Shown here: positions 8,191 through 9,116 of the stretch, in pieces | Numbering within the stretch: the stretch's first letter is position 1 | Layout: every line of letters starts with the position of its first letter | Assembly (NCBI RefSeq): GCF_006345805.1 | Contig: NW_021828130.1 | Location: 1 to 9,174 of the forward strand | Length of the DNA stretch: 9,174 nucleotides | Direction of reading: 5' to 3' | Source: Octopus sinensis | Taxonomy: Eukaryota | The notes under the pieces: model-generated | Database searches by the model: none | The model's input: the letters and a program-made list of their open reading frames with translations, nothing else | What the model was told of the DNA's origin: nothing | Translations under genes and position numbers: made by a program

Positions 8191-8273
8191 ACTGTACTGA
8201 AGAAAATAATGGGAGAGTAGAAATATGATTTTATATTTTTCACATCTCTCTAACTCCGAAACGCGTACACAGT
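8191..8273 (+). ncRNA. Type I minimal hammerhead ribozyme motif (core intact, helices eroded)
   Basis: CTGAAGA 8197-8203; GAAAC-GC-GTA 8258-8267 (palindrome ACGCGT); helix I ACTGT 8191-8195 with ACAGT 8269-8273. Helix II is partial (GAGAG/CTCTC, AGAAATAT/ATATTTTT) and its base is unpaired. Confidence 0.7.
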
Positions 8274-8559
8274 TAATCATAGCCTGGTGGATTCGTTATT
8301 TTTTTCTCTTTACCTGCGTGAGTTGTTGGGTATTGCTGTCTGGGAGATTTTCTTATGGTAGTGAAGTAGTTAGTTTTAACTGCTATTTCTAAATTTCGGT
8401 ATGCGGTGAAGCAAATTTTTGCTGAACCTTAATTATAATTATACTCATAATTATAGAATTTTTGTATAAGTTTACCGATAATGATTCTTTTAACGTACCG
8501 AGCTACTTGGTAAAATTATTAATTGTTAATTAATTAATTTTACCCTTTATTATTATTGA

Positions 8560-8582
8560 TGATATATATATATATATATATA
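8560..8582. repeat. (TA)n
   Basis: Direct reading; left boundary of the hammerhead cassette. Confidence 0.95.
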
Positions 8583-8624
8583 CAAATAAATGAAAGAATG
8601 GAGTTGAACGACGAATTAACAAAA

Positions 8625-8723
8625 TTCCTTTATTTTCGACATATGTTTCGAAGGTTGCATATTCCTAATTTCGAAGGAATAAGGGGTGCATTATGCCGCC
8701 TTCTCATCAGGAAAAACAAGGAA
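8625..8723 (-). ncRNA. Canonical type I hammerhead ribozyme, Penelope-like minimal type
   Basis: Minus strand: TTCCTT-gt-TTTTC-CTGATGA(8710-8704)-GAAGG..44 nt..CCTTC-GAAAC(8649-8645)-ATAT-GTC(8640-8638)-GAAAA-ta-AAGGAA. All core residues, the G10.1-C11.1 pair and the GUC site are present; helix III is the palindrome ACATATGT. Confidence 0.9.
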
Positions 8724-8783
8724 CTTATGTCAGCATCAAGATGCACAAAAACTTTTAGATGACTGCCCACACTCAACTACTCA

Positions 8784-8788
<5 letters not shown>

Positions 8789-8818
<30 letters not shown>
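8789..8818. repeat. (TA)n
   Basis: Direct reading; separates two hammerhead cassettes. Confidence 0.95.
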
Positions 8819-8820
<2 letters not shown>

Positions 8821-8915
8821 CTTTTCGAGATCATGACTTTTTCATCACTTGTCACTTAAAAGATTATACATATATTTTCATTGGGAACCACTTCACATCG
8901 ACAACCGGCGATTGT

Positions 8916-8960
8916 CACACGCTGATGACGGGTCAATACCCAGAAACTCCAGGCCGTGTG
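8916..8960 (+). ncRNA. Compact type I hammerhead ribozyme motif with a mutated cleavage triplet
   Basis: CACACG-CTGATGA(8922-8928)-c-GGGT-caat-ACCC-a-GAAAC(8943-8947)-tcca-GGC-CGTGTG. Helix I is a perfect 6 bp and extends via CAACC 8902-8906 with GGTTG 8971-8975; GGC replaces GTC. Confidence 0.75.
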
Positions 8961-9116
8961 TATCATGTCAGGTTGGAGATGGGAAGGTTGATTCCCTTTG
9001 CAAATACTGATAGAGCACAGATAGTGTGTCAATAGCCAGCTGGAGGTGGTGTCCTCCTGGAGCTACAGGCTACAGTAGCATCTACCCTTAAAGGTTAGCC
9101 ACATATACTTGACGAC

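What the first reader, a model, noticed from the sequence alone, without database searches (positions are those of the whole stretch)
8191..8975. Three different hammerhead motifs within 800 bp in alternating orientation
Seen: + (8191-8273, helix III ACGCGT), - (8625-8723, ACATATGT) and + (8916-8960, ACTCCAGG, two changes from the palindrome ACTCGAGT). A fourth at 1895-2010 has ACAATTGT. They share architecture but not helix sequence, so they look like independent families rather than local duplicates. Inference: a diverse, high-density population of short non-autonomous ribozyme-bearing retroelements (Penelope-derived or retrozyme-like). Family-specific helix III palindromes could restrict dimer cleavage to like partners.
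Basis: partly seen in the sequence, partly recalled or inferred. Interest (0 to 1): 0.75.

Follow-up and report, generated by a model that had tools for sequence, protein, structure and literature searches.

The report
Hammerhead ribozymes in Penelope-type repeats
The hammerhead (self-cutting RNA) motifs are really there, each inside a different short repeat present in thousands of copies in this animal genome and likely spread by Penelope-like jumping genes, which is an already described kind of element; only one of the four copies in this window is still intact, and cutting was not tested.

Summary
All four motifs sit at the stated coordinates, and each lies in a separate high-copy interspersed repeat of the 2.72-Gb genome. 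I call these families A (window 8154-8582, +), B (8583-8772, -), C (8822-9113, +) and D (1869-2049, +).

Other copies of each family carry a complete type I hammerhead. It has a CUGANGA/GAAA core, helices I and II, a GUH cleavage site and a self-complementary helix III: ACGCGU, ACAUAUGU, ACUCGAGU or ACAAUUGU.

In the window only B is intact.
- A has lost the closing pairs of helix II.
- C has two substitutions, one of them at U16.1.
- D has lost the CUGANGA half.

A hammerhead descriptor finds one hit in the window, against 1-2 hits per 1000 dinucleotide shuffles.

Three features point to Penelope-like element (PLE) mobilisation:
- the 3' ends abut (TA)n;
- 5' ends are truncated;
- 5'-truncated inverted head-to-head partners are frequent.

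Intact RT plus GIY-YIG PLEs also occur in this genome, some with a hammerhead before a (TA)n-flanked 3' end. No autonomous partner could be tied to A-D. Rfam's hammerhead models do not score A-D, and cleavage and expression are untested.

Verdict: new members of a known kind (PLE hammerheads and non-autonomous PLE derivatives). Interest is modest.

The parts
8154..8582 (+). Copy of repeat family A (about 430 bp, full length), with its 3' end in (TA)n
   Evidence: Own-genome search: 7804 first-look candidates, 40 scored, 85-91% identity. 27 of 31 sampled loci start within 10 nt of window 8154, and 29 of 31 reach the 3' end.
8191..8273 (+). Family A hammerhead, degenerate copy. The core (CUGAAGA 8197-8203, GAAAC 8258-8262), helix III ACGCGU 8261-8266 and GUA site (cut predicted after 8267) are present. 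The closing pairs of helix II are lost (family GGAG reads AAAU), and the innermost pair of helix I is an A-C mismatch.
   Evidence: Alignment with 11 family copies. 13 of 29 family copies pass the relaxed descriptor. An intact copy folds with helices I and II as its minimum-energy structure, z -2.9.
8563..8582 (.). (TA)n tract shared by the 3' ends of A (+) and B (-), which lie tail to tail
   Evidence: (TA)>=4 lies within 40 nt of the 3' end in 20 of 29 A and 18 of 29 B copies, against 75 of 720 background windows.
8583..8772 (-). 5'-truncated copy of repeat family B. The long form is about 416 bp and a short form about 205 bp. Its 3' end is ...CUUUCAUUUAUUUGUA followed by (TA)n.
   Evidence: 2211 first-look candidates, 40 scored at 97-99% identity. 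Other copies run on upstream. 5' starts are spread: 7 of 29 full length and 22 of 29 truncated.
8625..8723 (-). Family B hammerhead, intact. Helix I is 8723-8711 with 8637-8625 (5 contiguous pairs at the core, then 2 mismatches, then 6 more pairs). CUGAUGA is 8710-8704. Helix II is GAAGG/CCUUC closing a 44-nt insert. GAAAC is 8649-8645 and helix III ACAUAUGU is 8646-8639. The GUC site predicts a cut between 8638 and 8637.
   Evidence: It is the only descriptor hit in the window. 33 of 39 family copies pass. The unconstrained minimum-energy fold of the monomer is a different structure, z -1.9.
8789..8818 (.). (TA)n tract between the truncated 5' end of B and the 5' end of C
8822..9113 (+). Copy of repeat family C, ending ...ACUUGACGACA followed by (TA)n. 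The family has three classes of 3' end, one of which runs on into the family's own 5' region.
   Evidence: 2740 first-look candidates, 40 scored at 83-91%. 3' ends were read.
8916..8960 (+). Family C minimal hammerhead, inactivated copy. It reads CACACG-CUGAUGA-C-GGGU-caau-ACCC-A-GAAAC, then UCCA-GGC where the family has UCGA-GUC. G8950C breaks the palindrome and U8953G removes U16.1. Helix I 3' strand is 8955-8960.
   Evidence: Alignments of 30-32 copies. 10 of 31 copies pass the relaxed descriptor. 93.3% of cells are paired, against 2-57% when partners are slid.
1869..2049 (+). Copy of repeat family D (about 181 bp, mostly hammerhead), ending ...UCUUUCAUUUAyCAUAUA
   Evidence: 1467 first-look candidates, 40 scored at 75-83%. 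25 of 27 loci start within 10 nt of 1869.
1895..2010 (+). Family D hammerhead relic. The 3' half is kept: AGAUGUGUC 1980-1988, GAAAC 1989-1993, ACAAUUGU 1992-1999, GUA ending at 2000, helix I GUGAU 2001-2005. The CUGAAGA half (1905-1911) is mutated at 3 of 7 positions.
   Evidence: Alignment with 7 copies. An intact copy shows a 9-10 bp helix II and folds as a hammerhead, z -2.3. 3 of 16 copies pass the descriptor.

Best explanation
These are four copies (one intact, three decayed) of four different short, non-coding, high-copy repeats that each carry a type I hammerhead with a self-complementary helix III. They were most likely inserted by the reverse transcriptase/GIY-YIG endonuclease of Penelope-like elements (PLEs) acting in trans.

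Shown:
- the motifs and their coordinates;
- family membership and copy abundance;
- complete hammerhead architecture in other family copies;
- the hammerhead always on the strand whose downstream end abuts (TA)n;
- variable 5' truncation and frequent inverted head-to-head partners;
- intact RT+GIY-YIG PLEs in the same genome, whose own 3' ends also abut (TA)n and some of which carry a hammerhead about 90 nt before that end.

Inferred:
- An RNA of each family would be copied by target-primed reverse transcription from a nick in or beside a (TA)n tract. That would explain why three families have piled up around three (TA)n tracts within 800 bp in alternating orientation.
- The ribozyme, whose helix III has only 2 pairs and a 2-4 nt loop in a monomer, would be active only when two like copies pair their palindromes. 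It would cut after GUH in multi-copy transcripts.

What cleavage does for the element is unknown for all PLEs. In this window only B could still cut.
For: Family membership and abundance.

Intact architecture in other copies. Copies passing the relaxed descriptor: A 13 of 29, B 33 of 39, C 10 of 31, D 3 of 16. The order follows family age.

Chance excluded.

PLE-type anatomy.

Autonomous PLEs:
- The GIY-YIG search gave 5029 first-look candidates, 149 of 150 scored at E<=0.01, with open frames up to 883 aa.
- ORFs of 775-781 aa carry RVT_1 plus a C-terminal GIY-YIG.
- In L173-L175 a hammerhead with the U3-A8 core variant and ACAUGU helix III lies 570-620 nt after the stop codon. In L174 and L175 I read it about 90 nt before a (TA)n-flanked end. 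L162 has a weaker relative about 100 nt before its (TA)n-flanked end.

- PMC4209133 (parts 1 and 2 of 4 of the whole text, i.e. abstract, results, discussion and part of the methods): min-HHRs in PLE repeats, palindromic helix III, many consensus families per genome, motifs 100-700 bp apart on opposite strands, the U3-A8 variant, low in vitro activity.
- PMC8557442 (passages): (TA)n as preferred targets, inverted 5'-truncated copies, hammerheads near 3' ends.
- bioRxiv 10.64898/2026.07.22.740005 (abstract only): animal retrozymes as non-autonomous PLE derivatives.

Diversity: 76 descriptor hits in 21 classes across 385,087 bases of fetched loci, with 3-5 pair types at each helix position across 10 classes.
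Against: - Rfam hammerhead models give no hit at E<=10, either for the window copies or for 19 family copies that include intact ones.
- No blastn similarity links A-D to 26 PLE loci. The one B-like piece next to a PLE ORF lies outside that element.
- Within family C there is no covariation beyond shuffles: 122 of 500 shuffles reach the paired percentage and 89 of 500 reach the covariation score. The copies therefore look like neutral decay of a structured ancestor.
- The cross-family pair diversity was collected with a descriptor that demands pairing.
- Family C has a C-A mismatch where PLE hammerheads usually have G10.1-C11.1.
- Family D shows no inverted partners (0 of 27).
- Only 4 of 29 C copies have (TA)n after the 3' end as defined from the window copy.
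- The sampled copies are the best-scoring hits to the window copies, not a random sample.
- The minimum-energy folds of monomeric B and C are not the hammerhead fold.
- Cleavage, transcription and dimer formation were not observed.
Confidence: 0.8

Rival explanations
1. They are non-LTR retrozymes in the strict sense: units that are transcribed from head-to-tail arrays, cut out by two hammerheads, ligated into small circular RNAs and copied back by rolling-circle reverse transcription. This overlaps with the best explanation, since PLEs are the proposed helpers.
For: - Unit sizes of 181-430 bp with a type I hammerhead fit the 170-400 nt range given in PMC7229834 (abstract and passages).
- By my reading of the printed rows, about 7 of the 45 family C 3' ends printed run from the family's 3' end straight into its own 5' region, giving more-than-unit copies.
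- Direct partners occur within 200 bp in 5 of 31 A and 3 of 29 C loci.
Against: - Most sampled copies are single or inverted, not tandem. Direct partners: 5 of 31, 0 of 29, 3 of 29, 0 of 27.
- 5' and 3' ends are mostly fixed rather than permuted: A starts within 10 nt in 27 of 31 loci and D in 25 of 27.
- No circular RNA evidence could be obtained.
Confidence: 0.15
2. They are ordinary SINE-like elements mobilised by LINEs with microsatellite-type tails, and merely happen to carry a hammerhead.
For: - They are short, non-coding and high-copy with fixed 5' ends (A, D).
- A simple-repeat 3' end is also seen in some LINE/SINE pairs. This is general knowledge and was not tested here.
Against: - Head-to-head inverted 5'-truncated partners occur in 11 of 31, 12 of 29 and 11 of 29 loci. 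This is the arrangement described for PLEs (PMC8557442, passages).
- The autonomous PLEs read in this genome end at (TA)n as well.
- Hammerheads with palindromic helix III are the signature of PLE repeats (PMC4209133).
Confidence: 0.05
3. The motifs are chance matches to a short, degenerate consensus in AT-rich repetitive DNA.
For: Rfam gives no hammerhead hit. Three of the four window copies fail a full descriptor.
Against: - There are 1-2 hits per 1000 shuffles of the window against 1 observed.
- The defects of A, C and D are private to the window copies. Other family copies restore a complete hammerhead at the same place.
- Four unrelated families share the architecture with different helix sequences.
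Confidence: 0.01

Closest known systems
Hammerheads of metazoan Penelope-like elements: min-HHRs and small-palindromic-helix-III variants (Cervera and De la Pena 2014, PMC4209133)
   Same: - Type I topology and a CUGANGA/GAAA core.
- A helix III of 2 pairs with a 2-4 nt palindromic loop, implying dimers.
- Many sequence families per genome and thousands of dispersed copies, mostly away from full PLEs.
- Pairs on opposite strands a few hundred bp apart.
- G10.1-C11.1 in A, B and D.
- The U3-A8 core variant is present in this genome's autonomous PLEs.
   Different: - Helix II carries 44-60 nt inserts in A, B and D. The paper describes a helix II of 6-8 bp.
[quoted passage not shown]
- C has a C-A mismatch at the base of helix II.
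- Helix I is longer, at 5-6 or more pairs.
- A-D were not found inside a PLE repeat flanking an ORF.
Non-LTR retrozymes of animals (Cervera and de la Pena 2020, PMC7229834; Li, Clavereau and Pollet 2026 preprint, 10.64898/2026.07.22.740005, abstract only)
   Same: Short (170-400 nt) AT-rich non-coding units with a type I hammerhead, proposed to be non-autonomous derivatives of PLE pLTRs. Dispersed monomers also occur.
   Different: In my sample, tandem head-to-tail arrays are the exception. Circular RNAs were not tested.
Rfam Hammerhead_1 (RF00163)
   Same: The same core, topology and cleavage site. This genome holds other repeats that the model scores up to 48.2 bits: 8 of 74 scored candidates are over the 34-bit gathering score.
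   Different: A-D copies, including intact ones, give no RF00163 match at E<=10.
Canonical endonuclease-positive PLEs with (TA)n target preference (Craig et al. 2021, PMC8557442)
   Same: 3' ends at (TA)n, inverted 5'-truncated copies, partial tandems, and a hammerhead near the 3' end. The RT plus C-terminal GIY-YIG ORFs in this genome contain a CxxC-type linker (seen in the translation).
   Different: A-D have no ORF and no detected sequence similarity to the PLE copies examined.

Membership tests
Hammerhead ribozyme, type I | Conserved core C3 U4 G5 A6 N7 G8 A9 ... G12 A13 A14, the A15.1-U16.1 pair, and H17 at the cleavage site | tested here: met
   Met by window copy B, and by copy A for the core only. 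Not met by window copy C (U16.1 is G) or D (3 of 7 CUGANGA positions changed). Met in other copies of all four families.
Hammerhead ribozyme, type I | Three helices around the core, with helix I open and helices II and III closed | tested here: met
   The descriptor requires helix I >=4 bp and helix II >=3 bp flush with the core, plus a helix III pair. B passes in the window. Family copies pass at 13 of 29 (A), 33 of 39 (B), 10 of 31 (C) and 3 of 16 (D). Minimum-energy folds of intact A and D copies show helices I and II.
Hammerhead ribozyme, type I | Score at or above the Rfam gathering threshold for a hammerhead covariance model | tested here: not met
   No hammerhead family match at E<=1 for the whole window. 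None at E<=10 for 8150-9010 and 1850-2050, nor for 19 family copies.
Hammerhead ribozyme, type I | Self-cleavage at the predicted site | not testable with these tools
   No raw RNA reads were on offer. The runs are contigs of uncertain kind.
PLE hammerheads (min-HHR / small palindromic helix III) | Palindromic 15.2-16.2 and loop 3, so that helix III forms only between two copies | tested here: met
   The words are ACGCGU, ACAUAUGU, ACUCGAGU (or ACUCGGGU with G-U pairs) and ACAAUUGU. Homodimer duplexes give -8.4 to -12.1 kcal/mol.
PLE hammerheads (min-HHR / small palindromic helix III) | [quoted passage not shown] | tested here: inconclusive
   G10.1-C11.1 is present in A, B and D. The extra nucleotide is absent from A, B and D. 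C has C opposite A, then G-C.
PLE hammerheads (min-HHR / small palindromic helix III) | Location in the terminal repeat (pLTR) of an element with an RT-GIY-YIG ORF | tested here: not met
   There is no ORF beside the window copies, and no blastn link between A-D and 26 PLE loci. The B-like piece near L167 lies outside that PLE. PMC4209133 reports that most such motifs are dispersed away from full PLEs, so this lowers the membership claim only slightly.
Non-autonomous PLE-mobilised repeat | 5' truncation and inverted head-to-head 5'-truncated partners | tested here: met
   An inverted partner lies within 200 bp in 11 of 31 (A), 12 of 29 (B), 11 of 29 (C) and 0 of 27 (D) loci. B 5' starts are spread over positions 1-224.
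Non-autonomous PLE-mobilised repeat | Insertion bias for (TA)n | tested here: met
   (TA)>=4 lies within 40 nt after the 3' end in 20 of 29 (A), 18 of 29 (B), 7 of 16 (D) and 4 of 29 (C). Background is 75 of 720, and 5' flanks give 2 of 31, 5 of 29, 5 of 29 and 0 of 27.
Non-autonomous PLE-mobilised repeat | 3' end shared with an autonomous partner | tested here: not met
   No similarity to the 3' regions of the PLE copies examined. The published repeat annotation of one octopus species, which I take to be a relative (unverified), tabulates 31 PLE families in a listing I read only as a passage (PMC13282606), so the sample is small.
Non-LTR retrozyme | Head-to-tail tandem arrays of the unit | tested here: not met
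   A direct partner lies within 200 bp in 5 of 31, 0 of 29, 3 of 29 and 0 of 27 loci. Some C copies are longer than one unit.
Non-LTR retrozyme | Unit-length circular RNA | not testable with these tools
   No raw RNA reads.

The most novel reading that the evidence does not exclude
Family B (97-99% identical copies in long and short forms) is a currently active parasite of a Penelope-like element. The different helix III palindromes of co-resident families work as kin labels: only RNAs of the same family dimerise, cut and enter the copying pathway. Ribozyme dimerisation would then partition a shared reverse transcriptase among competing non-autonomous lineages.
Probability: 0.08. Interest if true: 0.6.

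Novelty: new member of a known kind. Interest (0 to 1): 0.3.

Why it matters
The finding adds four (in the wider sample at least ten) hammerhead-bearing repeat families from a large invertebrate genome to the known population of PLE-associated ribozymes. Three practical points follow.

- Rfam's hammerhead models miss these families, even in intact copies. Counts of 'hammerhead 1' loci in genome papers probably understate them; one example is 235 in a giant squid assembly (PMC6962438, passage). The 44-60 nt inserts in helix II of A, B and D may be part of the reason, but minimal family C is missed as well.
- Family B is young enough (97-99% identity) to be a good substrate for asking what a PLE hammerhead is for. 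It allows tests of monomer against dimer cleavage, circular RNA formation and insertion polymorphism.
- The tail-to-tail and head-to-head pile-up around three (TA)n tracts illustrates how (TA)n-linked insertion builds dense, alternating clusters.

None of this changes the current picture of these elements.

Tried and rejected
- **Rfam.** Scans of the window, its sub-regions and 19 family copies gave no hammerhead family. A 20-locus scan was swamped by microsatellite look-alikes of miRNA families and only the top 150 of 367 rows were shown, so it was uninformative.
- **RNA evidence.** No RNA holder is listed. The four runs laid are contigs guessed to be RNA. They cover the B element with depth rising towards its 3' end, and no place where molecules begin or end was reported. 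This says nothing for or against expression or cleavage.
- **Autonomous partner.** blastn of A-D against 12 GIY-YIG loci and 14 long-ORF PLE loci gave only a B-like and a C-like piece upstream of L167. Copies of that PLE begin at position 698 of my query, so both pieces are neighbouring insertions.
- **Regex hits.** Hammerhead-like regex hits in L044, L046 and L049 did not pass the pairing descriptor and were dropped.
- **Other half motifs.** The one at 2361 (-) lies in a palindromic, MITE-like repeat without a CUGANGA half. The one at 6285 (-) was not followed.
- **Covariation within family C.** None beyond shuffles.
- **Unconstrained folds.** Monomeric B and C do not give the hammerhead as the minimum-energy structure. 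This is expected if helix III needs a partner, so it is not decisive.
- **Earlier notes of this scan.** None for this genome, and no look-alike of B.
- **** was an empty script.
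Full report
**What is in the window**

The window is the whole of a 9174-base contig (C4601) of a 2.72-Gb, 13,516-contig genome. It consists almost entirely of microsatellites and interspersed repeats. From memory, its tRNA-derived SINE copies and genome size look cephalopod-like. I did not test this.

- **B (8625-8723, minus strand)** is a complete type I hammerhead.
  - Helix I has 13 positions: 5 contiguous pairs next to the core, then 2 mismatches, then 6 more pairs.
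  - The core reads CUGAUGA.
  - Helix II is GAAGG/CCUUC and closes a 44-nt insert.
  - GAAAC follows, then helix III ACAUAUGU and a GUC site.
- **A (8191-8273, +)** keeps the core, a helix I of 5 pairs, ACGCGU and GUA. The four bases that should close helix II read AAAU instead of the family's GGAG.
- **C (8916-8960, +)** is a 45-nt minimal hammerhead with two substitutions. UCGA has become UCCA, and GUC has become GGC, which removes U16.1.
- **D (1895-2010, +)** keeps only the 3' half. Three of the seven CUGANGA positions and the 5' strand of helix II are mutated.

**Is it more than chance?**

I wrote a descriptor that demands all of the following:
- CUGANGA;
- a helix II flush with the core;
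- GAAA;
- a paired or self-complementary helix III ending in U;
- H17;
- a helix I of at least 4 pairs.

It finds one hit in the window (B). Only 2 of 1000 dinucleotide-preserving shuffles have any hit.

A relaxed version allows a bulge or a 1x1 mismatch at the base of helix II and G-U pairs in the palindrome. It also finds one hit, and 1 of 1000 shuffles has any.

The tool's own pattern scan (CTGANGA-N4-34-GAAAC) gives 1 match against 0.04 expected.

The half motif GAA-AC(N2-4)GU-H with a palindrome occurs 5 times against a mean of 0.25. Only 3 of 1000 shuffles reach 3.

Against this stand the Rfam covariance models.
- They give no hammerhead match for the window at E<=1.
- They give none for the two sub-regions at E<=10.
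- They give none for 19 short stretches holding family copies, intact ones included.

The same model (RF00163) does score other repeats of this genome. Of 74 scored candidates, 52 reach E<=1 and 8 exceed the 34-bit gathering score, with a best of 48.2 bits. Those belong to other hammerhead families. The long helix II inserts of A, B and D and the mismatch at the base of helix II in C may be why the model fails on these families. That explanation is my inference.

**Each motif belongs to its own repeat family**

Searches of the genome with each stretch gave the following. In every case 40 candidates were scored, and the tool states that its counts are lower bounds.

| Family | First-look candidates | Identity of scored copies |
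|---|---|---|
| A | 7804 | 85-91% |
| B | 2211 | 97-99% |
| C | 2740 | 83-91% |
| D | 1467 | 75-83% |

I fetched 27-31 loci per family. These are the top-scoring hits to the window copies, so the sample is biased towards long copies that resemble the window.

In all four families, other copies restore a complete hammerhead at the same place.
- A: ACUGUA-CUGAAGA-GGAG...CUCC-GAAAC-GC-GUA-UACAGU.
- C: CACACG-CUGAUGA-C-GGGU-caau-ACCC-A-GAAAC-UCGA-GUC-CGUGUG.
- D: CUGAAGA with a 9-10 bp helix II (GACACAUCU/AGAUGUGUC) around an insert of about 58 nt, then GAAAC-AAUU-GUA-GUGAU.

The share of copies that pass the relaxed descriptor follows family age:
- B: 33 of 39;
- A: 13 of 29;
- C: 10 of 31;
- D: 3 of 16.

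Within family C, 93.3% of pair cells are standard pairs, against 2-57% when partners are slid. There is no covariation beyond shuffles: 122 of 500 shuffles reach the paired percentage and 89 of 500 reach the covariation score. The copies therefore look like neutral decay from a structured ancestor.

Across families the helices differ completely while the architecture is kept. In 385,087 bases of fetched loci the descriptor finds 76 hits in 21 classes. Across ten classes, each of the first four positions of helices I and II shows 3-5 pair types, and there are eight different self-complementary helix III words. Pairing itself was a condition of the search, so only the diversity is informative.

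**What the repeats are**

None is long enough to code for a reverse transcriptase.
- A is about 430 bp.
- B has a long form of about 416 bp and a short form of about 205 bp.
- C is about 290-345 bp.
- D is 181 bp.

In every family the hammerhead lies on the strand whose downstream end abuts (TA)n. The frequency of (TA)>=4 was as follows.

| Position | A | B | C | D |
|---|---|---|---|---|
| Within 40 nt after the 3' end | 20 of 29 | 18 of 29 | 4 of 29 | 7 of 16 |
| Before the 5' end | 2 of 31 | 5 of 29 | 5 of 29 | 0 of 27 |

Background in the same loci is 75 of 720 random 40-nt windows.

Family C has at least three classes of 3' end. By my reading, about 7 of the 45 printed ends continue into the family's own 5' region. 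These are more-than-unit copies, and they explain C's low figure.

B copies are truncated at many 5' positions: 7 of 29 are full length. Inverted partners joined head to head lie within 200 bp in 11 of 31 A, 12 of 29 B and 11 of 29 C loci, but in 0 of 27 D loci. Direct partners are rarer, at 5, 0, 3 and 0.

Three features together are the published hallmarks of Penelope-like elements (PMC8557442, passages; PMC4209133, parts 1 and 2 of 4 of the whole text):
- 3' ends at (TA)n;
- inverted 5'-truncated copies and partial tandems;
- a hammerhead with palindromic helix III.

The arrangement in the window fits this picture. A (+) and B (-) lie tail to tail on one (TA)n tract (8563-8582). The truncated 5' end of B and the 5' end of C flank a second tract (8789-8818). 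C ends at a third tract (9118 onward).

**Autonomous elements in the same genome**

A Pfam GIY-YIG search gave 5029 first-look candidates. Of 150 scored, 149 reached E<=0.01, with open frames up to 883 aa.

[quoted passage not shown] GIY-YIG exceeds Pfam's cut-off in all three. RVT_1 exceeds it in one and falls just below in two. Copies of these elements are 92-100% identical to each other.

In L173-L175 a hammerhead lies 570-620 nt after the stop codon. In L174 and L175 I read it about 90 nt before a 3' end that abuts (TA)n. It has the U3-A8 core variant (UUGAUAA), a 4-5 bp helix II (5 in L173 and L175, 4 in L174) and helix III ACAUGU. PMC4209133 describes this same core covariation.

The most abundant young family (L162 type) has a weaker relative of this motif at the same place. 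In the L167-type element I found no hammerhead in the 3' region.

I could not tie A-D to any of these.
- blastn finds nothing in 12 + 14 PLE loci, apart from a B-like and a C-like piece upstream of L167.
- Those pieces lie outside that element, whose copies begin at position 698 of my query.

**How it most likely works**

The motifs, families, ends and partners are shown. The rest of this section is inferred.
- The RNAs of A-D are probably copied in trans by a PLE enzyme through target-primed reverse transcription at or beside (TA)n tracts.
- In a monomer, helix III has two pairs and a 2-4 nt loop. Cleavage would therefore need two copies pairing their palindromes, as proposed for PLE and amphibian hammerheads (PMC4209133; PMC7229834).
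- Computed duplexes of the helix III segments give -8.4 to -12.1 kcal/mol for like pairs and -0.2 to -3.5 for unlike pairs.
- Any self-complementary word behaves this way. The palindromes are explained by the need for symmetry, and a selected family 'password' is not required.
- Minimum-energy folds show the hammerhead helices I and II for intact A and D copies (z -2.9 and -2.3). They do not for monomeric B and C.
- Most neighbouring pairs are inverted, so one transcript would rarely hold two sense hammerheads. Where dimers would form is open.

**Comparison with what is known, and novelty**

The closest described things are two:
- the hammerheads of metazoan PLEs (PMC4209133);
- their non-autonomous derivatives, the non-LTR retrozymes (PMC7229834; bioRxiv 10.64898/2026.07.22.740005, abstract only).

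The differences are of degree.
- A, B and D have 44-60 nt inserts in helix II.
- A, B and D have no extra base after position 9.
- C has a C-A mismatch at the base of helix II.
- Tandem arrays are rare in my sample.
- Rfam's models do not score them.

For cephalopods, my two literature searches found only a count of 235 'hammerhead 1' loci in a giant squid assembly (PMC6962438, passage) and repeat annotations that list PLEs (PMC13282606, passages). I found no description of these families. Supplementary files were not opened.

I file the finding as new members of a known kind.

**What stays open**

- Cleavage, transcription and circular forms are untested. The sequencing runs on offer were contigs of uncertain kind.
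- The helper element is unnamed.
- The copy samples are small and biased.

Noticed in passing
window 2303-2512: A palindromic, MITE-like repeat of about 230 bp, with a 138-bp short form. It matches itself on both strands and has 1393 first-look candidates in the genome. It contains a GAAAC-AU-GUU half motif but no CUGANGA half, so this is probably a chance resemblance to a hammerhead.
   Followed up: partly
window 6285 (- strand): One more half motif (GAAAC-AU-GUA with a palindrome) beside the large (TA/TG)n block. It was not examined further.
   Followed up: no
L173, L174, L175 (own genome; hammerhead 570-620 nt after the ORF stop): Autonomous RT+GIY-YIG Penelope-like elements carry a hammerhead with the U3-A8 core covariation (UUGAUAA), a 4-5 bp helix II and helix III ACAUGU. 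In L174 and L175 it lies about 90 nt before a (TA)n-flanked 3' end. The abundant L162-type family has a weaker version.
   Followed up: partly
L167 / L186-L191 (own genome): A very young Penelope-like family. Copies are 95-100% identical over the 1-kb 5' region, with 5930 first-look candidates, a 775-aa RT+GIY-YIG ORF and a 3' end next to (TA)n. No hammerhead was found in its 3' region by simple patterns.
   Followed up: partly
L128, L137, L139, L134, L032, L138 (family C copies): About 7 of the 45 family C 3' ends printed continue without a break into the family's own 5' region. These are more-than-unit copies, which suggests partial tandems or a multimeric template.
   Followed up: partly
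L053-L062 (own genome): Other hammerhead families are scored by Rfam RF00163 at up to 48.2 bits, for example GUAC-CUGAAGA-GACCC..GGGUC-GAAAC-AUGU-GUC-GUAC. One variant has an insert of about 70 nt in helix II. L058/L059 show two copies 431 bp apart on one strand.
   Followed up: no
window 3290-3560, 3890-4260, 4990-5110, 6540-7500, 7740-7900: Several copies, in both orientations, of what look like tRNA-derived SINEs, plus long (ATT)n and (TA/TG)n tracts. The whole 9174-base contig is repeats. This was seen by eye only.
   Followed up: no
family B (window 8595-8772): Sampled 31-letter words of the B copy are held by public runs under five coded organism labels in 8 studies, with shares of 0.54-0.92. 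The family, or close relatives of it, is therefore not confined to one labelled organism.
   Followed up: no
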